From positions 65,375-129,374 of the forward strand of contig JAVVSR010000002.1 of assembly GCA_036654095.1 (NCBI GenBank): 64,000 bases of DNA, given 5' to 3'. Positions 7,087-62,346 of this stretch are shown here, piece by piece. The notes beneath the pieces were generated by a model. The model was not told where the DNA came from. It was given only the letters and a program-made list of their open reading frames with translations, and ran no database searches. Each line of letters opens with the position of its first letter. Position 1 is the first letter of the stretch. This DNA comes from Clostridia bacterium. Its GTDB lineage: Bacteria; Bacillota; Clostridia; Christensenellales; CAG-917. Both the position numbers and the translations under genes were made by a program.

Positions 7087-7108
7087 AGTAATACCTCCTT
7101 AAAATCAA

Positions 7109-7184: not shown

Positions 7185-7210
7185 AACGTTATATCATACA
7201 CCACAAAAAA

Positions 7211-7864: not shown

Positions 7865-7872
7865 AACTCCTC

Positions 7873-16896: not shown

Positions 16897-17096
16897 ATGT
16901 TTTGAGTACGCCAGACAATATTTTTTTAATATTTATATTTAATCTTATAATTAGGATTTAACAGCAAATTTAAATATTGAAACCAAATATAATGATATTC
17001 AGTTATAATTATGTTTGCTTTTTATCATAACAATTTAATTTACACTTTCTTTCAGCAAGTATTGCAATGTTATAATTAATAAATTAAACAATAACT

Positions 17097-17621: not shown

Positions 17622-17650
17622 GTTACAATATATTATGCTTCAATTTAGCC

Positions 17651-17677
17651 AAAAAAAACAACCGCTAATATAGCGGT
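17651..17677 (-). terminator. rho-independent terminator after coaE
   Basis: Minus strand: ACCGCTA-TAT-TAGCGGT followed by TGTTTTTTTT. Confidence 0.6.
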
Positions 17678-17868
17678 CATAATTGGTTTAATTAAATAAA
17701 AAAATATAGTACTAATTTACAAAAAAATTACTTCCTAAAATTTTTCTCGCTTGCTTAAAATACCTTTTATAAAAATATTGATTAAAACAAGCAAAACTAT
17801 GTGCCGTAAAATTGTCAAAAAAATGCCTCAATTATAATTTCAGCTTGTTTTACGTAAAATGTTGTGCG

Positions 17869-18459
17869 CTAGTTTTCAATATGTATAGGGGTTATGCCTG
17901 TATCCGCTTCGATTTTTATAAGCATTTCACGAACTCGCCTGTACAATTCGTCATATGATGCCTTGTTTTCAATTATGTAATCGGCATATTTTTCGCGTTC
18001 GCCATCGCTTAACTGCGACATAATCATTTTGTGCGCCAAAATTTTATCAATGCCACTACGGTCAAAAAGCCGTGATACCCTTATATCGTATGGCGCGGTA
18101 ATAACAATAATTTTATCAAACATAGTTTGCATTCCACTTTCAAACAGCAGTGGTACTTCTACAAACAAATCTAAGCCCGCGCGCTTAATTTCACTAAAAA
18201 TAATTGGGTGGGCAATACTGTTTAGCAGCTGACGTTTGTCATAGTCGTTAAAAATAATTTTCCTTAAAATATCCTTATTAATTTTGCCATCAACCACCGC
18301 CGACGGAAAGGCAGTTTGTATTTTTTCAATATAATCAGCGCGCAACAAGAGCCTCGCATTGATTTCGTCTGCCGAGGCAACCTTGTAACCCAACGAAGAT
18401 ATAATTTTCATAACTTCGCTTTTCCCAACTCCAATACCACCAGTAACTGCAATTCTCAT
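17869..18459 (-). CDS. coaE: dephospho-CoA kinase
   Basis: 196 aa with P-loop GGIGVGKS. Directly follows polA, with a 1-nt overlap. Confidence 0.9.
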   Translation of the reverse strand: MRIAVTGGIGVGKSEVMKIISSLGYKVASADEINARLLLRADYIEKIQTAFPSAVVDGKINKDILRKIIFNDYDKRQLLNSIAHPIIFSEIKRAGLDLFVEVPLLFESGMQTMFDKIIVITAPYDIRVSRLFDRSGIDKILAHKMIMSQLSDGEREKYADYIIENKASYDELYRRVREMLIKIEADTGITPIHIEN

Positions 18460-43104: not shown

Positions 43105-44514
43105 TTAAATATTTTGTACAGCGCCAGTAAAAATAGGCACGTTATTTCGCATTATCGCATAAATAAATGGCTTGTCAAGCTCAAACTGTAATGTTTGATT
43201 TTGATTAAAGTGAACGTTTGTTGGAGCTTTGTCGTCAACTAACAACGAACCTGCATTTGCTCCCGATATGTCTAAAGAAATAAACGCTTTTGTGACAAAA
43301 TTTGATACATATAGATTACCCGCTGCAAAATTATTTAAGTTAGCTTTGTCAGCGCAAAAAATATCTGTAACACCGAAATTGCTTATTATTTTTTTCATAT
43401 CCTGATTAGAGGTAATTGAAAAAGTCGGAAATTTACAAACAAGATTACCATCAACAAGATTTTCTTGCAAACTAAATGTTGCAGCCTCTTGTAACAATCC
43501 TTTATTTAAAATATCCGAAATAGTATTGTTTCCATTTGGCTTTATCAAAACCAAATTATAATTGCCCAGCATATTTACTTTAGCCGATGTATAATTTGCG
43601 CTTTCATAAAACACTTTTCCTGTTGATTTATAAAGCAAGGCATTGGCAATTTTCGAACCTTCGTTAGGATGTGCGCTAAATTTTAAAGTTGTTTCTTCTA
43701 AATTACTCTTGTCCCAACTCGCCGAAAAATCTATTAGCGAAAATAATTTTAAAACAGATTCCATCTCGCCAATATCATTTTTTGTTCCAAACTTGCCGTC
43801 ACTGTTGTCACTGAGCCACGAGCGTATAGATTTTCCCATAACTGGTTTATTAAAGTTGCCATTAAAAATATCTGCTTTATAATTAATTGCTAATCTTTCA
43901 GCGGCAGGTTGGTTGTAATTTTTCAAGTTGTTAAACCAAGCGGAATTGTTTATAAGTAGACGCGCTTCATCAGTATTTTGGCAAAAGTAATTATAAATAA
44001 GTTTATATGTTTCGTCCGATTGCGCGCCAGCCCCTAAACAATCAACTAATTGTTGTTTTGTTTCGCCGTTGGCCATTTCCTGAAGAATACCAATCATAAA
44101 ATAAACAGCAAACGGTGAAAATACTGAATTATCTTCATTTGAAAGCAAGGTCGCTTCCGAAAGTTTGAACAGCGAATCGTTTAATCGAGCTTGCACAGTA
44201 TCATCTAGTTTAATGTTATTAGCTTGCAAATTTTTAGCATGCTGACTTCCGCTAATTTTAACCATATCGGTAGCGGTCGATATAGCAAAATCATTGTAGT
44301 TAATGTTCCGTCCTTTTATGCTTATAGCGACGCCTGTTATTGCCAAACAAATAATCAGCACGCTTGCAATGCTACTTGCCCAAAGTTTTTTACTTTTAAA
44401 TTTGTATTTATGTTCACGAGAATATGAAGTATCAACTGCTTGCTTTACACTTTCCTTTAGCATAACAGGCACTTCAATCTCGGATAATACACTTTTAAAA
44501 TCTTTATCGGTCAA
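43105..44514 (-). CDS. membrane-tethered serpin-domain protein in the anti-sigma position
   Basis: 469 aa: a 43-aa cytoplasmic N-terminus, one TM (LWASSIASVLIICLAITGVAISI), then a serpin fold (FSPFAVYFMIGILQEMANGETKQQL...FELDKPFIYAIMRNNVPIFTGAVQN). TTG start 8 nt after GGAGG and 4 nt after the sigma stop. Confidence 0.8.
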   Translation of the reverse strand: MTDKDFKSVLSEIEVPVMLKESVKQAVDTSYSREHKYKFKSKKLWASSIASVLIICLAITGVAISIKGRNINYNDFAISTATDMVKISGSQHAKNLQANNIKLDDTVQARLNDSLFKLSEATLLSNEDNSVFSPFAVYFMIGILQEMANGETKQQLVDCLGAGAQSDETYKLIYNYFCQNTDEARLLINNSAWFNNLKNYNQPAAERLAINYKADIFNGNFNKPVMGKSIRSWLSDNSDGKFGTKNDIGEMESVLKLFSLIDFSASWDKSNLEETTLKFSAHPNEGSKIANALLYKSTGKVFYESANYTSAKVNMLGNYNLVLIKPNGNNTISDILNKGLLQEAATFSLQENLVDGNLVCKFPTFSITSNQDMKKIISNFGVTDIFCADKANLNNFAAGNLYVSNFVTKAFISLDISGANAGSLLVDDKAPTNVHFNQNQTLQFELDKPFIYAIMRNNVPIFTGAVQNI

Positions 44515-44518
44515 CTTG

Positions 44519-44983
44519 CTACCTCCAGTCGTCTTTTAATTGCTCCCTAGCGCGCATCAATCTTGCCTTTACGTTTGATGGCGTTATTTTTAAATATTGC
44601 GAAATTTCCTTAACACTGTATCCATAATAATAATAAAGCAGTATAACCATTTTATACTTTTCAGGCAACGCTAATATCAATGGTAAATTGCTGTCAGGCA
44701 TTGACATTGCGGGATGATTTTCAATAAATTCATCGCCCACTTCTCGCTGTTTATACGCCTTCTTAATGTAATTTTTAGCAAGATTTTGTGTTACTTTAAT
44801 TATCCAAGCGCGCTCGTGTCGTTCGTCGTTAAAGTCGGGAGAATTGTAGCATAACTTTACAAAAAGTTCCTGCGTGATATCTTCGCTATCCGCAGCGTTT
44901 CGAGTAAATATGTAGGCTATCCGATACACTAAAGCATGATAGCTTTCATATAATGTCTCAAACTCCTTTACTTTGCCACTCAT
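44519..44983 (-). CDS. ECF-type RNA polymerase sigma factor
   Basis: Region 2 (DITQELFVKL...ERAWIIKVTQNLAKNYIKK) and region 4 (VKEISQYLKITPSNVKARLMRAREQL). ATG 44983 follows an AGAGGGA RBS; the ORF track starts at 45040. Confidence 0.88.
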   Translation of the reverse strand: MSGKVKEFETLYESYHALVYRIAYIFTRNAADSEDITQELFVKLCYNSPDFNDERHERAWIIKVTQNLAKNYIKKAYKQREVGDEFIENHPAMSMPDSNLPLILALPEKYKMVILLYYYYGYSVKEISQYLKITPSNVKARLMRAREQLKDDWR

Positions 44984-45371
44984 ATTCCCTCTACCATAAC
45001 AAACAGCGCTAAATCGTATATGGTTACATTTTATTTTCAATCCGCAAAAATCACGGCTTGAATTTAATCTTTTGTTTTTTATTTAACTTCATTGTAACAT
45101 TAATTTAAACAATATATCAAGTTTTTATTGTAAATTTTATAAACGGATTATTTTCAACTTTTTTTAAAAAATTTTCAATACATACTTAGATTGCAAATTT
45201 AGTTATAAATTCATATCGCTACTTTATTACCATATTTATTTTTATTTTTTTATTTTATAATTTTAAAGTTTTCGGTTTTCTGCTAATTTTACTAAATTTT
45301 TCATACTTCTTTTCCTTTTTTGCAATAAAAAAAGCACCAATTCATTTTGGTATTTGCGCTTACTCAAAAAG

Positions 45372-52000: not shown

Positions 52001-52077
52001 CTGGGTATGGCGCAGTTTGGTAGCGCGCTTGAATGGGGTTCAAGAGGCCGGAAGTTCAAATCTTCTTACCCAGACCA
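52001..52077 (+). tRNA. tRNA-Pro(GGG)
   Basis: 77 nt, folded by hand. Acceptor CTGGGTA/TACCCAG plus ACCA, anticodon arm CTTGA-ATGGGGT-TCAAG, T-loop AGTTCAAATCT. Confidence 0.88.
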
Positions 52078-52382: not shown

Positions 52383-54125
52383 TTATAGGTCGCGTTTTAC
52401 ATATTTTGTATGCAAAATTTCGTGCGCCTTATGACTGTTTGGCTCACCTAAGAAGGTGTCATACAATTCTTTAATATAAACATTCTCGTGCGACTTACGC
52501 AACTTCATAACTTTGTCAGTATCGTAAATTGCCTTTGCGCGCAACGCTTGAATATTGCTATTATTTCGAGTAAACGCATCTTGAATAGGCTGTCCACCAC
52601 CATTTACGCAGCCTCCTGGACACGACATAATTTCAATAAAATGATAATCTGCTTTACCCGCTTTAATTAATTCCAAAAGATTTCTTGCGTTACCTAAGCC
52701 TGACGCAACTGCAACTTTAACTTCAATCCCTGCGAGAGTATACTTGGCTTCTTTAATGCCCTGAACTCCACGCACATCTTTGAAATCCAAGTTTTTCAAC
52801 TCTTTACCTTCAATAACTTCAGCAAGCGTCCTAAGCGCCGCCTCCATAACACCGCCCGTCGCGCCAAACAACAGCCCCGCGCCCGAACCAATACCTAGCG
52901 GACTATCATACTGTTCATCTGAAAGTTCATTAAATAAAATCCCTTTACGTTTAATCAACCTAGCTAATTCGCGAGTAGTTAAAACGTGGTCAATATCTTG
53001 AACGCCAGCGGCATTTTGGAACGGACGATTTTTTTCAAACTTTTTTGCTGTGCAAGGCATAATAGTAACGACGCTAATTTTTTCAGCAGGAACGCCAATT
53101 TTCGACGCATAATATGTTTTGCAAAGCGCGCCAAACATCTGTTGTGGCGATTTGCAACTGCTTAAATTTCCAATAAATTCGGGATAGTTATGCTCAATAA
53201 ACTTAATCCACGCAGGCGAACAACTTGTCATCATCGGAAGTTTACCGCCGTTTTTAAGACGACCTAAAAACTCATATCCTTCTTCCATAATTGTTAGGTC
53301 AGCCGTAAAGTCTACGTCAAAAACATTATTAAACCCTATGCGACGTAATGCCGCAACCATTTTCCCTTCGCAGTTAGTGCCGATAGGGTATCCAAATTCT
53401 TCGCCGATGCCAACGCGAGTAGCAGGCGCTGTGCCGACAATAACATATTTATCAGGATTTGAGATATCCGCCAAAACTTCATCAATCTCATCACGTTCGC
53501 GAAGCGCGCCTGTCGGACATACTGTAATACATTGACCGCAACCAACGCAAGCTACGTCGCCTAATAATTTTTCAAACGCGCTCGATATATGCGTATCAAA
53601 GCCACGACCATTTGCGCCTATTACCGAAACCGATTGATATGCCGTACAAGCCGCCACGCAACGACGACAGAGAATACATTTATTGTTGTCGCGAACAAGA
53701 TAAGGAGTAGACTCGTCAATCGAATACTCAATCCGTGCGCCCAAGTATTTTTTAGTATCGCAACCTAATTCATATGCAAGTTTTTGAAGTTCGCAATTTT
53801 GATTTCTTACGCAACTTGGACAATTTTGTTCGTGGTCGGAAAGCATTAGTTCAACCGTAGTTTTTCGACTTTGCAAAATTTTGGGAGAGTTTGTAAAAAC
53901 TTCCGTTCCCTCACGCTCAAGCGGATATACGCAAGCAGCAACCAACGCGCGCGCGCCCTTAACCTCGCAAACGCAAACTCGACAAGCGCCAATAGCGTTG
54001 ATATCTTTTAAATAGCAAAGGGTAGGAATTTTAATACCTGCAATTTTAGCGGCATCTAAAATGGTAGTACCCTTTTCAACTGAAACCAAAATATTATCAA
54101 TTTTAACATTAATTAATTCACTCAT
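52383..54125 (-). CDS. hydA: [FeFe]-hydrogenase catalytic subunit (HydABC-type, group A3-like)
   Basis: N-terminal 2Fe-2S domain plus His-ligated and 2x[4Fe-4S] domains. H-cluster motifs TSCSPAW, MPCTAKKFE and EIMSCPGGCVNGGGQP. ATG 54125 is preferred (AAGGCGG RBS); the ORF-track GTG is at 54131. Confidence 0.93.
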   Translation of the reverse strand: MSELINVKIDNILVSVEKGTTILDAAKIAGIKIPTLCYLKDINAIGACRVCVCEVKGARALVAACVYPLEREGTEVFTNSPKILQSRKTTVELMLSDHEQNCPSCVRNQNCELQKLAYELGCDTKKYLGARIEYSIDESTPYLVRDNNKCILCRRCVAACTAYQSVSVIGANGRGFDTHISSAFEKLLGDVACVGCGQCITVCPTGALRERDEIDEVLADISNPDKYVIVGTAPATRVGIGEEFGYPIGTNCEGKMVAALRRIGFNNVFDVDFTADLTIMEEGYEFLGRLKNGGKLPMMTSCSPAWIKFIEHNYPEFIGNLSSCKSPQQMFGALCKTYYASKIGVPAEKISVVTIMPCTAKKFEKNRPFQNAAGVQDIDHVLTTRELARLIKRKGILFNELSDEQYDSPLGIGSGAGLLFGATGGVMEAALRTLAEVIEGKELKNLDFKDVRGVQGIKEAKYTLAGIEVKVAVASGLGNARNLLELIKAGKADYHFIEIMSCPGGCVNGGGQPIQDAFTRNNSNIQALRAKAIYDTDKVMKLRKSHENVYIKELYDTFLGEPNSHKAHEILHTKYVKRDL

Positions 54126-54137
54126 TTTCACACCGCC

Positions 54138-55922
54138 TTATTTTTTGATGATAGCTTTGAATTTACAATTATCAGCGCAAACGCCACATTTAATACACTT
54201 TGAATTGTCAATAACAAACTTCTCTTTAATTTTTCCACTAATTGCGCCCACTGGACACTTCTTTGAGCAAAGCGAACAGCCAACACATTTATCGGTAATT
54301 TCATAACTAAGAAGTTCCTTACATACGCCTGCCGGGCATCTCTTATCCACAACGTGCGCGACATACTCATCGCGGAAATAACGAAGCGTTGATAAAACTG
54401 GATTTGGCGCAGTTTGGCCAAGTCCACAAAGGCTATTTTCTTTAATGTAATAACAAAGTTTTTCCATATCGTCAAGGTCCTGAAGCGTAGCTTTCCCAGC
54501 AGTAATTTTATCCAAGTACTCAAGCAAGCGACGATTTCCAATACGGCAAGGCGTACATTTTCCACAACTTTCGTCAACCGTAAATTTTAAAAAGAATTTA
54601 GCAATATCAACCATGCAGTTATCCTCGTCCATAACAATCATACCGCCCGACCCCATCATTGAGCCGATGGAAATAAGGTTGTCATAGTCAATAGGAATGT
54701 CAAAGTGTTCCAGAGGGATACATCCGCCCGACGGCCCTCCCGTTTGCGCTGCCTTGAATTTTTTGCCATTAGGTATGCCACCGCCTATATCTTCAATAAC
54801 TTCACGGAGTGTTGTTCCCATAGGTATTTCAACAAGCCCTGTATTTGTAATTTTACCTCCTAACGCAAAAACCTTAGTCCCTTTAGACTTTTCAGTACCC
54901 ATAGCAGAAAACCAATCTGCGCCCTTTAGGATAATTTGCGCGATATTGGCAAAAGTTTCAACGTTGTTTAAAATGGTAGGTTTTCCGAAAAGGCCTTTTA
55001 CCGCGGGGAACGGAGGACGAGGACGCGGTTCGCCACGATTGCCTTCAATAGATGTCATAAGCGCCGTTTCCTCTCCGCAAACAAACGCGCCACTTCCTAA
55101 GCGGATATCAATATCAAAGCTAAAACCCGTATCCATAATATTTTTGCCCAATAGTCCATATTCTTTCGCTTGAGATAACGCAATTTTACAGCGCTCAACC
55201 GCAATAGGATATTCCGCACGAATATAAATGTAACCTTGGTCGCTTCCGATTGCATAGCCAGCAATAGCCATTGCTTCCAAAACCGAGTGGGGGTCGCCCT
55301 CTAAAACAGACCTATCCATAAATGCGCCCGGGTCGCCTTCGTCGGCGTTACAACAAACATACTTTTTGTTTGACACCGAGTCTTTAGCAAATTGCCACTT
55401 TAAGCCAGTTGGAAACCCTCCGCCGCCACGTCCGCGCAGACCTGATTTTTTAATTGTATCCACAACATCTTGAGGCGCAAGTTCGGTTATGCACTTAATT
55501 AAAGCCTGATAGCCGTCATAGCCAATATACTCATCAATTTCCTCGGGATTAATAACTCCGCAATTACGCAAGGCAATACGTGTTTGTTTTTTATAAAAGT
55601 TAGTATCCGAAAGCGACTTCACAATTTCGGTAGTCTTATGGTCCTTATATACAAGCCTTTCAACGATACGGCCTTTAATTAGATGTTCTGCCACAATTTC
55701 CGAAACATCGTCAGGCTTAATTTCGCTGTAAAAAGTGCCTTCTGGATATATAATAACAACAGGGCCAACCGCGCATAGACCAAAACAACCTGTCTTGACA
55801 ACTTGCGCTTCAGAGGAAAGCCCTTGCGCTTTAATTTCACTTTCAAATTTATCAAAAATTTCCGAACTGTGGTTTGAATGGCAACCCGTGCCACCACAAA
55901 CTAAAATATGACTTCGAAACAT
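54138..55922 (-). CDS. hydB: NuoF-like NAD(H)/FMN-binding hydrogenase subunit with N-terminal 2Fe-2S and C-terminal 2x[4Fe-4S]
   Basis: 594 aa with GRGGGGFPTGLKW, NADEGDPGAF, SCGKCTPCR and two CxxCxxCxxxCP motifs. AGGAGG RBS. Confidence 0.93.
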   Translation of the reverse strand: MFRSHILVCGGTGCHSNHSSEIFDKFESEIKAQGLSSEAQVVKTGCFGLCAVGPVVIIYPEGTFYSEIKPDDVSEIVAEHLIKGRIVERLVYKDHKTTEIVKSLSDTNFYKKQTRIALRNCGVINPEEIDEYIGYDGYQALIKCITELAPQDVVDTIKKSGLRGRGGGGFPTGLKWQFAKDSVSNKKYVCCNADEGDPGAFMDRSVLEGDPHSVLEAMAIAGYAIGSDQGYIYIRAEYPIAVERCKIALSQAKEYGLLGKNIMDTGFSFDIDIRLGSGAFVCGEETALMTSIEGNRGEPRPRPPFPAVKGLFGKPTILNNVETFANIAQIILKGADWFSAMGTEKSKGTKVFALGGKITNTGLVEIPMGTTLREVIEDIGGGIPNGKKFKAAQTGGPSGGCIPLEHFDIPIDYDNLISIGSMMGSGGMIVMDEDNCMVDIAKFFLKFTVDESCGKCTPCRIGNRRLLEYLDKITAGKATLQDLDDMEKLCYYIKENSLCGLGQTAPNPVLSTLRYFRDEYVAHVVDKRCPAGVCKELLSYEITDKCVGCSLCSKKCPVGAISGKIKEKFVIDNSKCIKCGVCADNCKFKAIIKK

Positions 55923-55931
55923 TTTATCCTC

Positions 55932-56300
55932 CTATACGTTTTCAACAAGATAATCGGTACAAATATTTCCGCCGACTATATGTTTTTCGATTATATTTTT
56001 TGCTTTCGCGCTGTCAACCTTAACGTAAGTAACCTTTTCCTGACCAGGAACAAACACTTCAACAATAGGTTCAAGCCTGCACATACCCAAACATCCCGCA
56101 CGCGTGACCTTAACATTTTGCAGTTTATGGCCTGCGACTTCATCAATAAGAGTGTTGAACACAGGACGAGCGCCCGCAGCTATACCGCAAGTCGCCATAC
56201 CAACTACAATACGCGTATCCGTACTATCAGCATTGTCACGCTGAGTAATTTCCGATTGCATTTTATCTCTAATTGCCTTAATATCGGCTAAAGTTTTCAT
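55932..56300 (-). CDS. hydD: thioredoxin-like [2Fe-2S] ferredoxin
   Basis: 122 aa with MATCGIAAG...AGCLGMC. The position matches the small ferredoxin gene seen in Thermoanaerobacter-type hyd operons. The symbol follows that usage and is tentative. Confidence 0.75.
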   Translation of the reverse strand: MKTLADIKAIRDKMQSEITQRDNADSTDTRIVVGMATCGIAAGARPVFNTLIDEVAGHKLQNVKVTRAGCLGMCRLEPIVEVFVPGQEKVTYVKVDSAKAKNIIEKHIVGGNICTDYLVENV

Positions 56301-56839
56301 AGCATCATACCTCCGTTTACTGTTTCAATATTTTCCGTTAATAAATCTTTAACAAAAGCTACCACCTCGGGACTACAAACAGATATCCCGTCTAATTCCA
56401 TTTTAAGTTCGCGCGTGTCAAACGTGAAAGTTTTTCCATTAATTTCATAATTCCAAACAAAATCCACATTATCGTCAAGCTGAGTTAAAATAGTCGACAC
56501 CAAATCGCCCAATGGAGCGCGGTCAATGCTGTCAAGTTTAAATGTTGCAACAACAGTTGTGCCGACGCCTAATTTAGATGTAATTTCAAAACTACCTTCA
56601 GCATCTTTAGTTGCCTGCATAAAAAGCGGAATACCCATACCAACTTTGCGAGTAGTTCGCGTAGTTGTAAAAGGGTCGCACACTTTTTTCAAAAAATCTT
56701 CGCTCATACCCTTGCCGTTGTCACGAATTTCAATTTTTAAAACTCCGTCATATGCCGATATGTTTACCTCAATAAGTTTAGCGTTGGCTTTAACAGAGTT
56801 TTCAACAATGTCAAGTATGTGAAGTGATAATTCTCTCAT
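56297..56839 (-). CDS. stand-alone GHKL (histidine-kinase-like) ATPase domain protein
   Basis: N box LDIVENSVKA, G1 DNGKGM and G2 GMGIP. No DHp/His-phosphoacceptor or sensor domain. ATG 56839 lies 1 nt after the hydC stop. Confidence 0.8.
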   Translation of the reverse strand: MRELSLHILDIVENSVKANAKLIEVNISAYDGVLKIEIRDNGKGMSEDFLKKVCDPFTTTRTTRKVGMGIPLFMQATKDAEGSFEITSKLGVGTTVVATFKLDSIDRAPLGDLVSTILTQLDDNVDFVWNYEINGKTFTFDTRELKMELDGISVCSPEVVAFVKDLLTENIETVNGGMML

Positions 56840-56840
56840 A

Positions 56841-57338
56841 TTATTTGTACTTTGCCAAAACACCATCTACGTCAGCTGATGTTAGCTTTCCGTAAACTTC
56901 GTCATTGACTGTCATAACAGGCGCCAATCCACAACAGCCTACACACCTAGTTTCTATAAGCGAAAATTTACCATCGGGGGTACATTCGTCGTGATGAATG
57001 CCTAGGTTCTTTTCAACCGCTGCCAACAAATTTCCACTACCCTTAACATAACAAGCCGTCCCCAGACAAACGGAAACTTGATACTTGCCACGAGGATTAA
57101 GTGTGAACTGCGAATAAAATGTCGCTACGCCAAATACCTTTTCAAGCGAAACGTCAAGAGTACTTGCTATTTTCTTTTGAACTTCAATCGGCAAGTATCC
57201 GTAAATGTCTTGGGCAATCTGTAAAGCAGGCATAAGCGCGCCCTGCATACTTTTAATTTCCTCAAGTTTGTTTGTAAGCAGAGCGTCCTGTTCGGGAGTA
57301 CCTTTGAATACAACATTTGTAAGTTTAATTTTTGCCAT
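56841..57338 (-). CDS. hydC: NuoE-like [2Fe-2S] hydrogenase subunit
   Basis: 165 aa with CLGTACYVKG...CVGCCGLAP. GGAGG RBS. Confidence 0.9.
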   Translation of the reverse strand: MAKIKLTNVVFKGTPEQDALLTNKLEEIKSMQGALMPALQIAQDIYGYLPIEVQKKIASTLDVSLEKVFGVATFYSQFTLNPRGKYQVSVCLGTACYVKGSGNLLAAVEKNLGIHHDECTPDGKFSLIETRCVGCCGLAPVMTVNDEVYGKLTSADVDGVLAKYK

Positions 57339-57401: not shown

Positions 57402-57419
57402 TTGTCAAAAAATTAACAC
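57402..57419. promoter_or_regulatory. candidate Rex (NADH/NAD+ sensing repressor) operator
   Basis: TTGTCAAAAAATTAACAC versus the clostridial Rex consensus TTGTTAANNNNTTAACAA: correct spacing, 2 mismatches. It starts 6 nt downstream of the predicted -10. Confidence 0.45.
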
Positions 57420-57425
57420 AGCGAT

Positions 57426-57453
57426 ATTATAGCACAGAATATTATTTTTTCAA
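57426..57453 (-). promoter_or_regulatory. candidate sigma-A promoter of the hyd operon
   Basis: Minus strand: TTGAAA, 16 nt spacer, extended -10 TGCTATAAT, about 90 nt upstream of the hydC ATG. Confidence 0.5.
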
Positions 57454-57649: not shown

Positions 57650-58375
57650 CTATCTTTTATATACATTGCCAAGACGACGCTTATGCTCGGTACGCGAAAT
57701 TGCTTTTTCGATTTTTATTTTGTCGTCATTTGACGCCTTTCCGTTTAACAAATAATCATCAATAACCTTATACGAAATACCCATTTCCTTTTCGTCAGTT
57801 TGGCCTTCATAAAGCCCTGCGGAAGGCTGTTTACAAATAATACTTGTGGGAGCGTTTAAGTAGCGCAACATCTCATAAACCTCAGTTACAGTCAAGTCGG
57901 CAGTTGGATTAAAATCAAATGCGCCATCACCCCATTTTGTAAAGTAGCCCATCATAATTTCACTTCGATTTCCCGTACCTGCCACCAAATAACTGTTTTT
58001 ATATGCGTACGCATAAAGTGTTGTCATTCTAATACGAGGATTTATATTTGCATATGCCATGACACACTCGCCAATTTCCGATTGCAACATCTTGCGAAAC
58101 GCTGACTTTACTTCGGTTAAATCCAACTCAATGGTATTAATGCTAAATTTATTTGCGCAACATAAAGCGTCGTCCCTGTCGCTTCCATAATTTACACTGC
58201 TTTCACACGGCATAATAATACCCGTTACGTTATCTGTGGCCATTTTGCAAAGAATACCAACCAACGTACAATCCTTGCCGCCACTGTTGCCATAAACAAT
58301 ACCTTTTGCATTTGAATTTTTTAAAATTTCTTTAATCCAATTAACTCTATTTTTGACCTCTAACGCGCAATCCAT
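57650..58375 (-). CDS. nadE: ammonia-dependent NAD+ synthetase
   Basis: 241 aa with PP-loop GNSGGKDC. The ATG overlaps the PHP gene stop (TAATG). Confidence 0.88.
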   Translation of the reverse strand: MDCALEVKNRVNWIKEILKNSNAKGIVYGNSGGKDCTLVGILCKMATDNVTGIIMPCESSVNYGSDRDDALCCANKFSINTIELDLTEVKSAFRKMLQSEIGECVMAYANINPRIRMTTLYAYAYKNSYLVAGTGNRSEIMMGYFTKWGDGAFDFNPTADLTVTEVYEMLRYLNAPTSIICKQPSAGLYEGQTDEKEMGISYKVIDDYLLNGKASNDDKIKIEKAISRTEHKRRLGNVYKR

Positions 58376-59073
58376 TAGTTTATGCCTCCATTTAAGTATT
58401 TTAACAACGCTTTAGAACTTTTATCTTCAATTTCAAAAATATGTATTTCTTGACCTATTTTTTGCAAAGTATGGCTGTCACTATCAATTATAACAACACA
58501 ATCTTTAACATATTTGTCACGCTCAAATTTATCTATCGGCGATGACAATTCAACTGCGCCATATTCATTTGGTATTGTCCCCAATATTGCCAATATGCCA
58601 TTTGCCTCACGATTTATATGCGCAGGAACAGCAACCCCGTTAAATTTTTTTATACAATTACTTATTTCATATTCAGCAATATTTGATGACATCAACAGCA
58701 ACGAATCTTCGTGACCAACAACTTCGTCATCTTCATTTACTATTAGTTGCTGTCCAAAAATTTCTTCCCTGTTTTTCATTTTCGTAAATTCAATCGAATT
58801 ATAAAAATTATTTAAATCAACAAACTTTTCAAACAAACATAAAAAGTGTATTTCCTCTTTTGTTTGAAGCTCCATCGCGGGGACCACTGTTACCCCCAAC
58901 ATTTCCCCCACTGCCATTGTTGCTTTAACATTTTTTATACTGTTATGGTCGGCAACTGCAAGCATCTCTATCCCCGCAGCGCTCGCCTTCGCAACTATGT
59001 TGACGGGTGTCATATCATTGTCGGCGCAGGGCGACAGCGCGCTATGAATATGTAAATCATAGCAAACTTTCAT
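58375..59073 (-). CDS. PHP-domain metal-dependent phosphoesterase
   Basis: 232 aa with DLHIHSALSPCAD, VADHNS and DSDSH motifs. Confidence 0.8.
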   Translation of the reverse strand: MKVCYDLHIHSALSPCADNDMTPVNIVAKASAAGIEMLAVADHNSIKNVKATMAVGEMLGVTVVPAMELQTKEEIHFLCLFEKFVDLNNFYNSIEFTKMKNREEIFGQQLIVNEDDEVVGHEDSLLLMSSNIAEYEISNCIKKFNGVAVPAHINREANGILAILGTIPNEYGAVELSSPIDKFERDKYVKDCVVIIDSDSHTLQKIGQEIHIFEIEDKSSKALLKYLNGGIN

Positions 59074-59074
59074 T

Positions 59075-59401
59075 TCACTTACCTAAATATGCTTTTACGG
59101 CATCAAATACCGTCAAGTCGGTTTCTATAATGCAAATGTCTTTCTCTTTAGACTTGTCAATCAAATGTTCGTCACACTTTGAACCCTCGCAAATCACAAC
59201 ACAGCCTACCGATGCAAGCGACGCCACCGCCGCCACATTCAAATTTGTCATAACAGTAAACCATACGCACGACGCGGGCGCGCGACTCATAACAAAACTT
59301 AAAAAATCCCCACAATATCCGCCTTCCAACTCATTTTCAAGTGACGAAGGCACATTCACAATTTTAGCCTTTAATATTTTAATTAATTGGTCAATTTTCA
59401 T
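59075..59401 (-). CDS. DRTGG-domain protein
   Basis: 108 aa, similar in layout to 61660..62013 (NLNVAAVASLASVGCVVICEGSK...ICIIETDLTVFDA). GGGAGG RBS. The stop is 1 nt before the PHP ATG. Confidence 0.65.
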   Translation of the reverse strand: MKIDQLIKILKAKIVNVPSSLENELEGGYCGDFLSFVMSRAPASCVWFTVMTNLNVAAVASLASVGCVVICEGSKCDEHLIDKSKEKDICIIETDLTVFDAVKAYLGK

Positions 59402-59708
59402 ATTATACCTCCCTTGCTCGTTTTATATTATTCGCCTTTAGCTTACATCTAACTATACTATTTCGATATTTCTAGTATTATCTTTCTTGTTAAATTTATG
59501 AATACCAATTACCGCGCAACAACACTACACTTATAATCCTTATTTATGTTACATTAATGTGGATTATTTTAAAAAATATTTAAATTATTTACTACCCTTA
59601 TCATTGCATAATTTATTTTAAAATTCTTATTTAAATTATCTACACATAGTCGGCGTACCTTTCATTTGTATTTGTTTAAACAAACATTTTAAACAACTAT
59701 GTACTAAT

Positions 59709-60974
59709 TTATTCGCTCAAATTCTCACTAACATTAACTTTCCGCAAACACTCCTCAACCTTAGCTTCGCCATTGGCCACATCTTCGGCAAATGCCCTGC
59801 AACTCGGCGCACCGCATATGCCACAGTCAAGGTGAGGTAAATTTTTATATATTGCCTCAATTTTTGCCAACTTTTCCATAGCAATTTGTCTGTCCTCATC
59901 AAGCCTGTAAACCTCTTTAATTTTTGGAGCTTGAGTCCATTTAAAATAGTCAAGCGGTTTTTCCGCCTCGTTTAATGTGTTACAATTTAACTGCATATTT
60001 TTGCGAAGTGACCTAATACGCGCTTTCGCTACAAACGCATTTTCAATATTTAAAACGCCACCAACACACCCCCCGTTGCAAGCGTTTAGCTCAACAAAAT
60101 CAAGATAATTAAGTTTGCCATCTTCAATTTCTTTAAGTACGTTGATTACATTTTCAATGCCGTCTGCCGCTAAGTATTTATCCATAAAAAGGCCTGCCGC
60201 CTCGCCACCGCTTGACGCCCATTGAATACCTATTATCCCCGTTTTAGCAAGTTGCTTAATTTCCTTTAGCTTAGGCATAACGGCCAAAAGCTTCATATAA
60301 ACCTCGCTTATTGACAAAACACCATCAACTTCGGGTTCAGTTAGCCCAAGCCCAGTTTTCAGCGCAAACACTTTTGCTGGACACGGCGAAATAAAAAATA
60401 CACCAATATCTTCTTTCGGAATACCCTTTTTTATTGCAGCTTCTCGAGCCATCTTTATTGCGATGTCGGCAGGAGCTTGTAAGTTTAGCAACCTATCGGC
60501 CAACTCGTGAAACCTAACCAATATTAGCTCGACAACCGCCGGACAAGCCGTACTTATTATTGGCCTTACTATATTAGGTTTTTCTGCCAAATACTTGCGC
60601 GATGCTTCGCTAACTAATTCCGCTCCGCGCGTGACTTCAAATACATCGTCAAAGCCAATTTCCAACAATCCGCTTAAAACGATGTTAATATCGTCCATAT
60701 TATTAAATTGGCCATATAGAGAAGGCGCTGGTACTGCAATTTTATATTTATATTTGTTTATAATATCAAAGCTGTCATAGCTTGCCAACTTTGCCTGATG
60801 TGGACAAAGCCTTACGCACTCCCCACAAGCAACACATCGCTCATATAGCACCTTTGCTTTGCCGTTTCTAACTCTTATAGCCTCGGTCGGACAACGCTTC
60901 ATGCAGGTAATACAACCCTTGCACTTATCGCTGTCGAGCGTAACGGTGTTCATACTCTTGTCGTTATCAAACAT
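59709..60974 (-). CDS. HydS-like putative sensory [FeFe]-hydrogenase homologue without an output domain
   Basis: 421 aa. N-terminal 2x[4Fe-4S] ferredoxin motifs (CKGCITCMKRCP, CVACGECVRLCP), H-domain with altered motifs STACPAV / SPCPAKVFA / ELNACNGGCVGG, and a terminal Cx2Cx4Cx16C (CGICGAPSCRAFAEDVANGEAKVEEC). Confidence 0.8.
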   Translation of the reverse strand: MFDNDKSMNTVTLDSDKCKGCITCMKRCPTEAIRVRNGKAKVLYERCVACGECVRLCPHQAKLASYDSFDIINKYKYKIAVPAPSLYGQFNNMDDINIVLSGLLEIGFDDVFEVTRGAELVSEASRKYLAEKPNIVRPIISTACPAVVELILVRFHELADRLLNLQAPADIAIKMAREAAIKKGIPKEDIGVFFISPCPAKVFALKTGLGLTEPEVDGVLSISEVYMKLLAVMPKLKEIKQLAKTGIIGIQWASSGGEAAGLFMDKYLAADGIENVINVLKEIEDGKLNYLDFVELNACNGGCVGGVLNIENAFVAKARIRSLRKNMQLNCNTLNEAEKPLDYFKWTQAPKIKEVYRLDEDRQIAMEKLAKIEAIYKNLPHLDCGICGAPSCRAFAEDVANGEAKVEECLRKVNVSENLSE

Positions 60975-61092
60975 AATTCTCCTCTAGTCTCGAAAAACGA
61001 GTAAACCTTATAAATATAGCGCTTATCATAAAACCACTTTCATATAATGAAATTTAACATTAATATTATATAATATTATTTAGAAACAATTA

Positions 61093-61222
61093 ACACGACT
61101 TATCACTTAACTGCTTTCTTTAATAACTACACACCTTATCACTAACTGCTTTCTTAATAACAATACACCTTATCACTAACTGCTTTCTTTAATATCTACA
61201 CACCTTATCACTAACTGCTTAA
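61093..61222. repeat. four tandem direct repeats of a ~35-bp unit (core ACACCTTATCACTAACTGCTTTCTT)
   Basis: Core CTTATCAC starts at 61099, 61135, 61169 and 61204 (periods 36, 34 and 35 bp). An additional CTTATCA sits at 61022. Confidence 0.9.
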
Positions 61223-61237
61223 TAATGATTAAAAATA

Positions 61238-61663
61238 TTATTGTTCAAAATTAACTTGCAAAGTAAGCTCAGTGCCTTTGCCTACCTCTGACTTAATGTT
61301 AAACTTGTCGGTATATTTTAGCATATTAGGCAAGCCCATACCTGCGCCAAAACCCATCGCGCGAATGTTATCGGGAGCGGTAGAATAGCCGTCTTGCATT
61401 GCCAACTCGATATTTTCAATGCCTTTGCCCGTATCACGAAGAACAATGACAATTCGGTCATTAAAAATATCTACAAACGCCTTTCCTCCGCCCGCGTGAA
61501 TAACCATATTAATTTCGCCCTCATACATTGCGATTGCAACTCGGCGAATAGTCGTTGGGGGTATGCCCAACTGTTTTAGTGTATTTTTGACTTCGTCGCT
61601 TGCGCTACCCGCCGAAACGAAGTTATTTCCTTCGACTGTAAATTCCAAATGAAACGCGCTCAT
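61238..61663 (-). CDS. RsbW/SpoIIAB-like GHKL ATPase (anti-sigma-type serine kinase fold)
   Basis: 141 aa with EGEINMVIH, DTGKGI and GFGAGMGLPNM motifs. The ATG overlaps the upstream DRTGG stop (ATGA). Confidence 0.75.
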   Translation of the reverse strand: MSAFHLEFTVEGNNFVSAGSASDEVKNTLKQLGIPPTTIRRVAIAMYEGEINMVIHAGGGKAFVDIFNDRIVIVLRDTGKGIENIELAMQDGYSTAPDNIRAMGFGAGMGLPNMLKYTDKFNIKSEVGKGTELTLQVNFEQ

Positions 61664-62013
61664 ACGTCATCTTCTCCTAGATGCAAGCCATTGACGTAAA
61701 GCATACCGCAAGCGATGTACATACGATATCTACTCGAAAGTATCACTATGCCGCTTTGTTTTGCCAAGTTGACCATATCAACAGTAGGCACCTTCCCCCG
61801 AACAAGCACCAAACAGCGCATATCAAGCATAGCCGCTGTACGAACAGCTTGCGGATTGCACAACCCTGAAATTAAAACCGATTGGTCTTTAACAAAGGCA
61901 AGTACATCGCTCATCATATCCGATGCGCACGCAGAGGAAACCTCCTTATTAAGGCTTTCGTCGCAACAATATACTTTGGCATTTAAGATATTGACTATGT
62001 CACTTATTTTCAT
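61660..62013 (-). CDS. DRTGG-domain protein
   Basis: 117 aa. LISGLCNPQAVRTAAMLDMRCLVLVRGKVPTVDMVNLAKQSGIVILSSRY matches the DRTGG pattern. AAGGAG RBS. Confidence 0.7.
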   Translation of the reverse strand: MKISDIVNILNAKVYCCDESLNKEVSSACASDMMSDVLAFVKDQSVLISGLCNPQAVRTAAMLDMRCLVLVRGKVPTVDMVNLAKQSGIVILSSRYRMYIACGMLYVNGLHLGEDDV

Positions 62014-62346
62014 AAAACGCTCCTTTGGGATATTTGATAATTATATCATATAAAGAAAACTATTTCAAGGACTTTGATTATACACAATTTAACTTTTTGT
62101 AAATTATTGCACTTTTTTTTACTATTTTAGGATTATATTTTAATATTTTATAGCTTATTTTTACACTTGTTAAATTTTACAAATCAAAATAACGCAAAAT
62201 TATTTTATTATTTTGATTAAATTTTAAAGTTTACTTACAAATTTGCTTATAAAAATATTTATGTAATTTAAAAATATTAGTTTTTATTGTATTTTTATTA
62301 TATATGTAGTATAATGGTTATAAATATTTTTTAATGAGGTTATCCA

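What the first reader, a model, noticed from the sequence alone, without database searches (positions are those of the whole stretch)
58375..62013. Split H2/redox-sensing module: output-less HydS-like hydrogenase flanked by two DRTGG proteins, an RsbW-like kinase and a PHP phosphoesterase
Five co-oriented genes lie directly upstream of the HydABC-type hydrogenase operon.

- **The genes:** DRTGG (61660..62013); an RsbW-like GHKL ATPase (61238..61663, ATGA-coupled); a 421-aa [FeFe]-hydrogenase homologue (59709..60974); a second DRTGG (59075..59401); and PHP (58375..59073).
- **H-cluster motifs:** The homologue keeps a Cys directly before the Pro of L1 and the Cys residues of L2 and L3. It also carries the substitutions I associate with putative sensory enzymes. 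L1 is STACPAV, with Ala where TSCCP has the proton-relay Cys. L2 is SPCPAKVFA, with Ser for Met. L3 is ELNACNGGCVGG, with Asn for Met.
- **C-terminus:** It ends with an exact Cx2Cx4Cx16C motif, which I recall from Thermotoga maritima HydS. It stops 12 residues later, with no PAS, kinase, phosphatase or MCP domain.
- **Inference:** Any signal must therefore pass to separate proteins. The neighbours are the candidates: two DRTGG domains, a serine-kinase-fold ATPase with no cognate STAS or sigma gene nearby, and a PHP phosphoesterase. To my knowledge no signalling mechanism has been worked out for this gene set.
- **Prior knowledge:** A hydrogenase-like regulator next to trimeric hydrogenases has been noted in comparative genomics.
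Basis: partly seen in the sequence, partly recalled or inferred. Interest (0 to 1): 0.78.

Follow-up and report, generated by a model that had tools for sequence, protein, structure and literature searches.

The report
PAS-less hydrogen-sensor hydrogenase gene cassette
This is a well-conserved gene cassette built around a slow, sensor-type [FeFe]-hydrogenase (group D "HydS") whose neighbouring DRTGG, kinase-like ATPase and PHP proteins are very probably its missing signalling partners; the hydrogenase type is already known, but how it signals is not.

Summary
In detail: all five ORFs, the motifs and the exact Cx2Cx4Cx16C ending are at the stated coordinates.

**What the hydrogenase is.** The 421-aa protein is a group D (M2e) [FeFe]-hydrogenase. 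It is about 45% identical to the biochemically characterised Thermoanaerobacter mathranii TamHydS. It is not a group C enzyme like T. maritima HydS, because it has no PAS domain. Published work already places such enzymes upstream of trimeric HydABC and near "kinases", and leaves signal transduction open.

**What is added here.**
- The order DRTGG1–ATPase–HydS–DRTGG2 is kept in every testable one of 97 related loci (83/83 upstream, 84/84 downstream).
- PHP follows in 61/73 loci, and HydAB lies within about 9 kb in 27/38.
- Each of DRTGG1, the SpoIIAB-like ATPase and DRTGG2 is fused to HydS in some lineage. DRTGG1 is also fused to the ATPase in one MAG.
- Both DRTGG paralogues share an invariant D-x-x-S motif.
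- The ATPase and PHP keep their catalytic residues.
- By predicted fold, PHP is nearest EndoQ and RNase AM, not protein phosphatases.

**Best reading.** This is an H2-gauging complex that controls a GHKL kinase through DRTGG adaptors. The phosphorylation steps are inferred, not shown.

**Verdict.** A new member of a known kind that offers testable candidates for an open mechanism.

The parts
61660..62013 (-). DRTGG1: 117-aa stand-alone DRTGG-domain protein, translationally coupled (ATGA) to the ATPase gene
   Evidence: ORF. Pfam DRTGG 29.8 bits, above the 25.2 threshold. Found directly upstream of the ATPase gene in 83/83 testable loci. Fused to the ATPase in L103 and to the N-terminus of HydS in P0273 and P0333. 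D32 and S35 are invariant.
61238..61663 (-). SpoIIAB/RsbW-like GHKL ATPase (putative Ser kinase), 141 aa
   Evidence: Pfam HATPase_c 35.3 bits and HATPase_c_2 31.6 bits. The best NCBIfam hit is SpoIIAB at 55.7 bits, below its 135-bit cutoff. PDB hits to SpoIIAB 1TIL, 1L0O and 1TH8 at E about 1e-5. 28% identity over 138 aa to B. subtilis SpoIIAB. E48, N52, D77-x-G79-x-G81 and G104-L111 are invariant in 47 non-redundant homologues. Fused to HydS in P0276.
59709..60974 (-). Group D (M2e) [FeFe]-hydrogenase, HydS type. It has two N-terminal [4Fe-4S] sites, an H-domain with relay Cys replaced by Ala and Met353 by Ser, a C-terminal Cx2Cx4Cx16C [4Fe-4S] site, and no PAS domain
   Evidence: Domain and sequence evidence. 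About 45% identical to TamHydS. 45% identity / 372 bits to Koleobacter group D, against 27% / 122 bits to group C and 25% / 88 bits to group A HydA. 417 clusters at 50% identity match at E<=1e-30.
59075..59401 (-). DRTGG2: 108-aa divergent DRTGG paralogue, coupled to PHP by a 1-nt spacer
   Evidence: Pfam DRTGG 21.9 bits, below the gathering threshold. The joint profile hits DRTGG structures 3L2B and 2IOJ. Found downstream of hydS in 84/84 loci. Fused to the HydS C-terminus in P0244, P0259, P0262, P0337, P0345 and P0374. It shares the invariant D32 and S35 with DRTGG1.
58375..59073 (-). Stand-alone PHP-domain metal-dependent phosphoesterase, 232 aa
   Evidence: Pfam PHP 33.2 bits, above the 26.4 threshold. 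H8, H10, D42, H43, E68, H76, H152, D199, H201, C16 and C79 are invariant. The AlphaFold2 model has pLDDT 94.4. The Foldseek top hit is EndoQ 5ZB8 (TM 0.72), followed by BAD_1165, RNase AM and TM0559. Present in 61/73 loci. Searching from PHP homologues returns the same cassette.
57650..58375 (-). NAD+ synthase (nadE), start overlapping the PHP stop (TAATG). This is a lineage-specific passenger between the cassette and hydC
   Evidence: Pfam NAD_synthase 229 bits. Junction. Found in the same position only in the closest relatives: L018-L022 and L105.
52383..57338 (-). Presumed target operon: hydC (57338..56841), a second GHKL ATPase (56866..56297), a small 2Fe-2S ferredoxin (56300..55932), hydB (55922..54138) and hydA (54131..52383)
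   Evidence: Pfam and NCBIfam results; HydA scores 867 bits against FeFe_hydrog_A6, above that model's cutoff. A promoter-like site (TTGAAA-16-TATAAT with TG) lies at 57453..57426. HydAB lies within about 9 kb of HydS in 27/38 loci.
62040..62068 (-). Promoter-like site (TTGAAA-17-TATAAT with TG extension) 27 nt upstream of the DRTGG1 start
   Evidence: This is a consensus match only and has not been tested.

Best explanation
**Overall model.** The cassette encodes a hydrogen-gauging regulatory complex. Sequence identity, synteny, fusions and residue conservation are shown here. Complex formation, phosphorylation, the PHP substrate and the output are all inferred.

1. **Sensor.** HydS is a group D [FeFe]-hydrogenase. 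It binds an H-cluster, two N-terminal [4Fe-4S] clusters and a C-terminal [4Fe-4S] cluster. It lacks the proton-relay Cys, so it turns over slowly, and its cluster redox state follows the H2 partial pressure. This is inferred from homology, with the biochemistry taken from TamHydS.
2. **Coupling.** HydS has no output domain of its own. It is coupled to a SpoIIAB-like GHKL ATPase/kinase through two paralogous DRTGG proteins. DRTGG1 sits on the kinase side and DRTGG2 on the C-terminal side of HydS. The two probably pair through a DRTGG-DRTGG contact of the kind seen in CBS-pyrophosphatases. This step is inferred from fusions and gene order.
3. **Switch.** H2-dependent reduction changes the complex and switches the kinase. 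The most likely acceptor is the invariant Ser of the D-x-x-S motif in a DRTGG protein, by analogy with SpoIIAB phosphorylating SpoIIAA.
4. **Reset.** Where PHP is present, it resets the state by hydrolysing a phosphoester.
5. **Output.** The output tunes the electron-bifurcating HydABC hydrogenase, either its expression or its activity.
For: **HydS identity.**
- Published work describes TamHydS as having higher H2 affinity and low catalytic rates, a C-terminal cluster, a gene upstream of HydABC and an unknown signal route (PMC8163306; PMC13104023; PMC3561251).

**Synteny.**
- DRTGG1 plus the ATPase lie upstream in 83/83 loci.
- DRTGG2 lies downstream in 84/84.
- PHP is present in 61/73.

**Taxonomic spread.** The same set occurs in Acetivibrio saccincola, Koleobacter methoxysyntrophicus and a Thermoanaerobacterales MAG.

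**Fusions.**
- HydS::DRTGG2 appears in 6 cluster representatives.
- DRTGG1::HydS appears in 2.
- ATPase::HydS appears in 1.
- DRTGG1::ATPase occurs in L103 and CBS::ATPase in Koleobacter.

**Residue conservation.**
- ATP-binding motifs are invariant, and the ATPase aligns end to end with SpoIIAB.
- D32 and S35 are invariant in both DRTGG paralogues, including the fused forms.
- PHP metal ligands are invariant and the model is confident.

**Supporting context.**
- DRTGG-DRTGG' dimer contacts are reported for CBS-PPase.
- PHP homologues lead back to the same cassette.
Against: - No DNA-binding protein, sigma factor or STAS protein is in or near the cassette, so the output is unknown.
- The only substrates I know of for RsbW/SpoIIAB-type kinases are STAS proteins (general knowledge, not tested here). 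DRTGG is a different family.
- The predicted PHP fold is closest to EndoQ, RNase AM and nucleotide phosphatases, and no protein phosphatase appears among the Foldseek hits.
- PHP is missing from a whole clade (12/73 loci).
- HydAB is not within about 9 kb in 11/38 loci, including an isolate genome.
- TamHydS still catalyses H2 turnover, so a catalytic role is not excluded.
- The loci are not phylogenetically independent.
- Most fusions come from gene calls on short metagenomic contigs.
Confidence: 0.55

Rival explanations
1. HydS is the regulated enzyme, not the sensor. It is a slow but genuine ferredoxin-linked hydrogenase. The kinase-like ATPase, DRTGG proteins and PHP switch its activity on and off in response to another cue such as energy charge or adenine nucleotides.
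For: - TamHydS interconverts H+ and H2 close to the thermodynamic potential.
- In Koleobacter the ATPase carries CBS domains. In CBS-PPases those domains bind adenine nucleotides.
- DRTGG occurs in nucleotide-regulated enzymes and in SpxR-type metabolic regulators.
- The cassette also occurs away from hydABC.
Against: - The relay Cys and the proton-pathway residues are lost family-wide, and published rates are low.
- The usual position next to, or inside, the hydABC operon (27/38 loci) suggests a link to that enzyme rather than an independent metabolic role.
Confidence: 0.15
2. Signalling runs through a small nucleotide rather than protein phosphorylation. The PHP enzyme hydrolyses a nucleotide or oligonucleotide messenger, the DRTGG (and in some lineages CBS) modules bind it, and the GHKL protein acts as an ATP-dependent conformational switch or anti-sigma factor rather than a kinase.
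For: - The nearest predicted-fold and sequence neighbours of PHP are EndoQ, RNase AM, a 3',5'-bisphosphate nucleotidase type and the PHP domain of TrlF.
- A CBS::ATPase fusion exists.
- DRTGG-containing CBS-PPases respond to diadenosine polyphosphates.
Against: - No cyclase or synthetase for a messenger is in the cassette.
- PHP is dispensable in one clade.
- The invariant Ser in both DRTGG paralogues and the intact kinase-type ATP site fit phosphotransfer at least as well.
Confidence: 0.15
3. The five proteins are accessory or assembly subunits of the HydABC complex, with no signalling role. For example, they might chaperone or gate its iron-sulfur or flavin sites in an ATP-dependent way.
For: - In several loci the five genes sit inside the structural operon between hydC and the second GHKL ATPase (L014-L016, L027).
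- A second GHKL ATPase is a constant member of the hydABC operon (52 loci).
- No transcription factor is present in the cassette.
Against: - The cassette stands alone in 11/38 loci and in Acetivibrio saccincola.
- The HydA subunits that matched in the PDB come from HydABC-type entries (7P5H, 8A6T, 7Q4V). The absence of such accessory subunits from those structures rests on my knowledge, not on a tool result.
- HydS retains every H-cluster ligand, which points to H2 chemistry of its own.
Confidence: 0.08

Closest known systems
TamHydS of Thermoanaerobacter mathranii (group D / M2e putative sensory [FeFe]-hydrogenase)
   Same: - It has the same architecture: two N-terminal [4Fe-4S] sites, an H-domain, a C-terminal Cx2Cx4Cx16C site and no PAS domain.
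- The relay Cys is replaced by Ala and Met353 by Ser.
- It is about 45% identical to the window protein.
- Its gene also lies upstream of a trimeric HydABC and next to a histidine-kinase-like ATPase.
   Different: - Position M497 is Asn here, invariant in this clade, but Leu in TamHydS.
- The published TamHydS context mentions an AraC regulator, which is not present here.
- The DRTGG and PHP neighbours are not discussed in the literature I could search.
Group C sensory hydrogenases (T. maritima HydS, R. albus HydS, Thermoanaerobacterium HfsB)
   Same: - The H-domain lacks the relay Cys, and the same Cx2Cx4Cx16C cluster site is present.
- The genes lie near bifurcating hydrogenases and Ser/Thr kinase genes.
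- hfsB deletions change fermentation balance and adhE expression.
   Different: - Group C proteins carry a fused PAS domain. In Koleobacter the PAS domain is joined to a sigma-54 activator.
- The window protein has none and shares only 27% identity with a group C protein.
- Its partners are DRTGG proteins and a PHP enzyme instead.
SpoIIAB-SpoIIAA-SpoIIE / RsbW-RsbV-RsbU partner-switching modules
   Same: - A small single-domain GHKL Ser-kinase-type protein is present, with N, G1 and G2 boxes intact.
- Small alpha/beta partner proteins carry an invariant Ser.
- A hydrolase gene lies in the same cluster.
   Different: - There is no STAS protein, no PP2C phosphatase and no group 3 sigma factor.
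- The score is far below the SpoIIAB and RsbW equivalog cutoffs.
- The input is an H-cluster protein.
- Phosphotransfer is untested.
Regulatory [NiFe]-hydrogenase HoxBC with HoxJ/HoxA (Ralstonia/Cupriavidus)
   Same: The logic is the same: a slow hydrogenase acts as an H2 gauge bound to a kinase that controls hydrogenase genes (summarised in PMC5707799).
   Different: - The metal site and the protein families are unrelated.
- HoxJ is a PAS histidine kinase with a response regulator, and no response regulator is present here.
CBS-DRTGG regulatory insert of family II pyrophosphatases, and SpxR-type HTH-DRTGG-CBS regulators
   Same: - The DRTGG fold family matches (3L2B at E 1e-4).
- DRTGG acts there as a dimerising regulatory module.
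- An association with CBS domains is seen in the Koleobacter homologue.
   Different: - Here DRTGG is a stand-alone protein with its own invariant D-x-x-S signature, and it lacks the name-giving DR/TGG residues.
- Its partners are a kinase-like ATPase and a hydrogenase.

Membership tests
[FeFe]-hydrogenase group D (M2e, HydS of TamHydS type) | H-domain with all four H-cluster Cys ligands (L1, L2 and two in L3) | tested here: met
   Fe_hyd_lg_C scores 96 bits. C144, C198, C299 and C303 are invariant in alignments A1 and A2.
[FeFe]-hydrogenase group D (M2e, HydS of TamHydS type) | Proton-relay Cys (CpI C299) absent, and Met353 replaced by Ser or Thr | tested here: met
   L1 is STACP (Ala). L2 is S/T-P-C in all 13 aligned relatives. 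The criterion is taken from Land 2020.
[FeFe]-hydrogenase group D (M2e, HydS of TamHydS type) | N-terminal 2x[4Fe-4S] domain, C-terminal Cx2Cx4Cx16C site, and no PAS domain | tested here: met
   Fer4 families and FeS PF04060 (51 bits) are found, with no PAS hit. The protein ends 12 residues after the last Cys.
[FeFe]-hydrogenase group D (M2e, HydS of TamHydS type) | Closer in sequence to characterised group D than to groups A, B or C | tested here: met
   - About 45% identity to TamHydS, from an OCR-damaged coding sequence, so approximate.
- 45% / 372 bits to Koleobacter group D.
- 27% / 122 bits to group C.
- 25% / 88 bits to group A HydA.
- The best PDB match scores only 69 bits.

No formal tree was built.
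[FeFe]-hydrogenase group D (M2e, HydS of TamHydS type) | Binds an H-cluster and reacts with H2 (high affinity, low rate) | not testable with these tools
   This needs expression, maturation and spectroscopy. It is known only for TamHydS.
[FeFe]-hydrogenase group C (M2f, TmHydS/HfsB) | PAS domain fused after the C-terminal cluster site | tested here: not met
   There is no PAS hit and the protein ends at residue 421. None of the ten longest of the 150 nearest cluster representatives carries a PAS domain.
SpoIIAB/RsbW anti-sigma Ser kinases | Single GHKL domain of about 140 aa with N, G1 and G2 ATP-binding boxes | tested here: met
   HATPase_c_2 scores 31.6 bits. The protein aligns to SpoIIAB over 138 aa. 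E48, N52, DxGxG and GxGxGxG-L are invariant.
SpoIIAB/RsbW anti-sigma Ser kinases | Reaches the curated equivalog score for SpoIIAB or RsbW | tested here: not met
   The SpoIIAB model TIGR01925 gives 55.7 bits against a 135-bit cutoff. The RsbW model gives 20.7 bits against 145.
SpoIIAB/RsbW anti-sigma Ser kinases | Cognate STAS antagonist and group 3 sigma factor in the same locus | tested here: not met
   Neither is found among the cassette and its neighbours. The only sigma gene found in the window (only 40000-64000 was screened) is an ECF type about 13 kb away.
SpoIIAB/RsbW anti-sigma Ser kinases | Phosphorylates a Ser of its partner protein | not testable with these tools
   This needs an in vitro kinase assay. 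Only the invariant Ser35 in both DRTGG paralogues is shown.
DRTGG domain (PF07085) | Reaches the Pfam gathering score | tested here: inconclusive
   DRTGG1 scores 29.8 bits (pass). DRTGG2 scores 21.9 bits, below the 25.2 threshold. The joint profile hits DRTGG structures 3L2B and 2IOJ. The two paralogues align end to end at about 22% identity.
PHP phosphoesterase (PF02811) | Gathering score, conserved His/Asp/Glu metal ligands and a PHP barrel fold | tested here: met
   The Pfam score is 33.2 bits against 26.4. The ligands are invariant. The model has pLDDT 94.4, and all 34 Foldseek hits with E<=1e-3 are PHP-domain proteins.
PHP-family protein phosphatases (CpsB/YwqE type) | Closest sequence or structure neighbours are protein phosphatases | tested here: not met
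   The top Foldseek matches are EndoQ, BAD_1165, RNase AM, TM0559 and Pol III PHP. The NCBIfam best hits are TrlF-PHP, nucleoside bisphosphate phosphatase and RNase RNM. This does not exclude activity on a phosphoprotein.

The most novel reading that the evidence does not exclude
The cassette is a previously undescribed kind of partner-switching phosphorelay gated by an H-cluster. DRTGG-domain proteins take the place of STAS antagonists and are phosphorylated on the invariant D-x-x-S serine by a SpoIIAB-like kinase. A PHP hydrolase takes the place of the PP2C phosphatase. The redox state of the C-terminal [4Fe-4S] cluster of a group D hydrogenase decides which partner the kinase binds. This would give Clostridia a direct H2-to-phosphorylation switch controlling electron-bifurcating hydrogenases.
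Probability: 0.25. Interest if true: 0.8.

Novelty: new member of a known kind. Interest (0 to 1): 0.55.

Why it matters
**The open question.** Group D hydrogenases are studied intensively as spectroscopic models, and TamHydS is the main example. They are called "putatively sensory", but nobody has shown how a PAS-less enzyme could pass on a signal. Land et al. 2020 state this as an open question.

**What this analysis contributes.**
- Gene order is conserved around HydS across 97 related loci.
- Natural fusions join HydS to each of DRTGG1, DRTGG2 and the SpoIIAB-like ATPase.
- Together these name the proteins to test and the residues to mutate: DRTGG D32 and S35, and the ATPase N and G boxes.

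**Physiological relevance.** H2 partial pressure steers the split between H2, acetate, ethanol and lactate in gut and cellulolytic Clostridia. A defined H2 sensor would therefore matter for gut physiology and for engineering biofuel strains, as the hfsB work on the related group C system already suggests.

Tried and rejected
- **Genome scan with the single HydS sequence and metagenome scan with an alignment.** Both returned only relatives of 46-74% identity. Wider sampling had to come from cluster representatives and a profile search.
- **Complex prediction.** It is not available with these tools.
- **PDB search with the ATPase.** It gave top 'polyubiquitin' hits. I rejected these as an artefact of summing many weak repeats (each stretch has E about 80-100). 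SpoIIAB is the real match.
- **Rex operator search.** The 24 matches are no more than the 21 expected by chance. One 2-mismatch site sits just after the -10 box of the hydC promoter (57402-57419). It is suggestive only.
- **The 35-bp tandem repeat between the ATPase gene and hydS.** I considered it as an operator array, but related loci have nothing equivalent there.
- **Rfam search of the region.** It found only a tRNA.
- **Literature.**
  - No searchable paper links DRTGG or PHP with hydrogenases or HydS.
  - Zheng et al. 2014 is not held.
  - Calusinska et al. 2010 could not be read.
- **TamHydS coding sequence from a PDF supplement.** It is OCR-damaged with frameshifts, so the 45% identity is approximate.

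Full report
**1. Observation**

| Gene | Coordinates (minus strand) | Length |
|---|---|---|
| DRTGG1 | 62013..61660 | 117 aa |
| GHKL ATPase | 61663..61238 | 141 aa |
| Hydrogenase homologue (HydS) | 60974..59709 | 421 aa |
| DRTGG2 | 59401..59075 | 108 aa |
| PHP | 59073..58375 | 232 aa |

- The first two genes overlap in ATGA.
- DRTGG2 and PHP are 1 nt apart.
- Pfam confirms DRTGG1 (29.8 bits, threshold 25.2), HATPase_c and HATPase_c_2, and PHP.
- In HydS, Pfam confirms Fe_hyd_lg_C, FeS PF04060 and two ferredoxin-type cluster motifs.
- DRTGG2 alone is below threshold at 21.9 bits.
  - It aligns end to end with DRTGG1.
  - A joint profile of both paralogues hits the solved DRTGG domains 3L2B and 2IOJ.
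- The L1, L2 and L3 motifs and the Cx2Cx4Cx16C ending read exactly as described.

Two details differ from the finding.
- An NAD synthase gene lies between PHP and hydC. Its start overlaps the PHP stop.
- hydS is flanked by AT-rich gaps of 263 and 307 bp.

**2. What the hydrogenase is**

Published work defines group D (M2e) enzymes by several features (PMC8163306):
- two N-terminal [4Fe-4S] sites;
- a C-terminal Cx2Cx4Cx16C site;
- loss of the relay Cys;
- Met353 replaced by Ser or Thr;
- no PAS domain.

The window protein meets each of these.

| Compared with | Identity | Score |
|---|---|---|
| TamHydS (coding sequence from the SI of PMC13104023; OCR errors make this approximate) | about 45% | 259 bits (best segment) |
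| Group D protein of Koleobacter | 45% | 372 bits |
| PAS- and sigma-54-fused group C protein of the same genome | 27% | 122 bits |
| The window's own catalytic HydA | 25% | 88 bits |

- No solved structure is closer than 69 bits.
- The family is large. At 50% clustering, 417 clusters match at E<=1e-30. The nearest 150 are almost all 410-460 aa and align through the C-terminal cluster site.
- The correct reference is therefore TamHydS, not T. maritima HydS, which belongs to group C and has a PAS domain.

Comparative papers already list M2e genes a few genes upstream of trimeric bifurcating hydrogenases in Caldicellulosiruptor, Thermoanaerobacter and C. thermocellum. They call them sensory because of nearby protein kinases (PMC3561251).

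**3. Are the neighbours partners?**

I fetched 17 genome loci and 80 metagenome loci with HydS identities of 46-74%. I located each window protein in them by tblastn.

| Feature | Loci with it / loci testable |
|---|---|
| DRTGG1 followed by the ATPase, immediately upstream of hydS | 83/83 |
| DRTGG2 immediately downstream | 84/84 |
| PHP following DRTGG2 | 61/73 |
| HydA and HydB within about 8-9 kb | 27/38 |

- The 12 loci without PHP form one clade. An HMM search finds no PHP there either.
- Where hydABC is adjacent, three layouts occur:
  - co-directional, as in this window;
  - divergent;
  - the five genes embedded between hydC and the operon's second GHKL ATPase.
- These loci are not independent samples, so the counts show consistency rather than statistical weight.
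- Wider sampling found the same set in an Acetivibrio saccincola genome (no hydABC nearby), in Koleobacter methoxysyntrophicus and in a Thermoanaerobacterales MAG.
- Two PHP homologues chosen without reference to HydS lie in the same cassette.

**4. Fusions**

The unusually long members among the 150 cluster representatives are natural fusions.

| Fusion | Where seen |
|---|---|
| HydS with a C-terminal type-2 DRTGG | P0244, P0259, P0262, P0337, P0345, P0374 |
| Type-1 DRTGG at the N-terminus of HydS | P0273, P0333 |
| Cassette-type ATPase at the N-terminus of HydS | P0276 |
| DRTGG1 and the ATPase as one 279-aa protein | Thermoanaerobacterales MAG |
| ATPase carrying CBS domains | Koleobacter |

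- Every fusion keeps the order of the operon.
- This is the strongest evidence that these proteins act together with HydS. They supply what the PAS domain supplies in group C.
- One caveat applies: most fusions rest on gene calls from short metagenomic contigs.

**5. State of the partner proteins**

*ATPase.*
- It aligns over its whole length with SpoIIAB. PDB hits 1TIL, 1L0O and 1TH8 score E about 1e-5, and identity to B. subtilis SpoIIAB is 28% over 138 aa.
- It keeps E48, N52, D77-x-G-x-G and the G104-L111 glycine box without exception in 47 non-redundant homologues.
- It is far below the equivalog cutoffs for SpoIIAB and RsbW.
- No STAS or group 3 sigma gene is nearby. The nearest sigma gene is an ECF type about 13 kb away.

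*DRTGG paralogues.*
- They are only about 22% identical to each other.
- They share an invariant Asp32 and Ser35 in a [S/C]-D-[L/M]-[L/M/F]-S motif. The motif is also present in all fused forms.
- The motif does not appear in the CBS-PPase DRTGG sequence (alignment).

*PHP.*
- It keeps all metal ligands and gives a confident model with pLDDT 94.4.
- Its nearest structures are endonuclease Q (TM 0.72), BAD_1165, RNase AM, TM0559 and polymerase PHP domains.
- No protein phosphatases appear among the hits.

**6. Mechanism**

I commit to a sensor-complex model.
- HydS reports H2 through the redox state of its clusters.
- DRTGG2 docks on the HydS C-terminal side and DRTGG1 on the kinase.
- The two DRTGG proteins pair as DRTGG domains do in CBS-pyrophosphatase.
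- The GHKL protein is switched as a result.
- The invariant Ser is the most likely phospho-acceptor.
- PHP resets the state where it is present.
- The output acts on HydABC.

Only identity, synteny, fusion and residue conservation are shown. Every biochemical step is inferred. I give the overall model 0.55 and the specific DRTGG-phosphorylation relay about 0.25.

Three rivals remain open:
- HydS is the regulated enzyme rather than the sensor.
- The signal is a nucleotide messenger, suggested by the fold neighbours of PHP and the CBS fusion.
- The proteins are structural accessories of HydABC.

The missing output component is the main gap.

**7. Comparison and novelty**

- The hydrogenase is a new member of a known, biochemically characterised group.
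- The logic resembles three known systems: group C HydS/HfsB systems with adjacent Ser/Thr kinases, SpoIIAB-type partner switching, and the HoxBC-HoxJ regulatory [NiFe] hydrogenase.
- It differs in using DRTGG proteins and a PHP enzyme.
- I found no paper that discusses those two families in this context.
- The signalling question is stated as open by the group that characterised TamHydS.
- Interest is therefore moderate. The finding is not surprising to specialists, but it turns an open question into defined experiments.

Noticed in passing
window 61099-61220 (gap between the ATPase stop and the hydS start): A tandem repeat of 35 bp x 3.5 copies at 90% match. The 19-nt core GCAGTTAGTGATAAGGTGT occurs three times exactly and nowhere else in the window (0.01 expected). 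Related loci have no equivalent, so it could be an operator array or a local expansion.
   Followed up: partly
window 56297-56866 (-): A second GHKL ATPase of 189 aa (HATPase_c, HATPase_c_3) sits inside the hydABC operon between hydC and the small 2Fe-2S ferredoxin. It is conserved in 52 related loci and has intact DxGxG and GxG boxes. Its function is unknown. It travels with hydABC, not with the HydS cassette.
   Followed up: partly
window 52383-54131 (-), HydA residue about 300: The catalytic HydA reads TSCSPAW where CpI has TSCCP, so Ser occupies the position of the cluster-ligand Cys300. The same TSCSP occurs in 39 of 40 related HydA sequences and in the solved HydA1 chain of PDB entry 7Q4V, so it is a natural variant of this HydABC lineage.
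   Followed up: partly
window 57650-58375 (-): An NAD+ synthase gene is translationally coupled to PHP (TAATG) between the cassette and hydC. It sits in the same position only in the closest relatives (L018-L022, L105) and lies upstream of the cassette in L024. This is notable because HydABC uses NAD(H).
   Followed up: partly
window 57402-57419, just after the -10 box of the hydC promoter-like site (57453-57426): A Rex-operator-like palindrome, TTGTCAAAAAATTAACAC, with 2 mismatches to TTGTTAAnnnnTTAACAA. Window-wide matches are not above chance (24 against 21). A Rex-type gene lies next to the cassette in Koleobacter (L099 5372-6019).
   Followed up: partly
L099 (Koleobacter methoxysyntrophicus) 17010-19380 and 6929-8071: Directly after hydA lies a group C HydS fused to PAS and a sigma-54 activator domain, a candidate one-component H2-responsive transcription factor. 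A DDE transposase is inserted between DRTGG1 and the CBS::ATPase gene of the group D cassette.
   Followed up: no
L102 (metagenome contig, 3471 bp): A permuted arrangement: DRTGG2 - PHP - operon-type GHKL ATPase - DRTGG1::HydS fusion - small ferredoxin. No cassette-type ATPase is visible on the contig.
   Followed up: no
L010 9622-10001 and L011 7188-7573; L012 9199-10001 and L013 8743-9223: The gap between the ATPase gene and hydS holds insertions in some relatives. In L010 and L011 it is a GC-rich element with terminal inverted repeats and internal repeats (MITE-like). In L012 and L013 it is an inserted ORF whose Cys/His-rich sequence looks to me like a dCMP deaminase (no domain search was run).
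   Followed up: no
window 44519-45040 (-) and 43105-44514 (-): An ECF-type sigma factor gene is followed by a 469-aa protein with a serpin domain. This is an unusual pairing and appears unrelated to the hydrogenase cassette.
   Followed up: no
window 52001-52074 (+): A tRNA gene (Rfam 61 bits) marks the downstream end of the hydABC operon.
   Followed up: no
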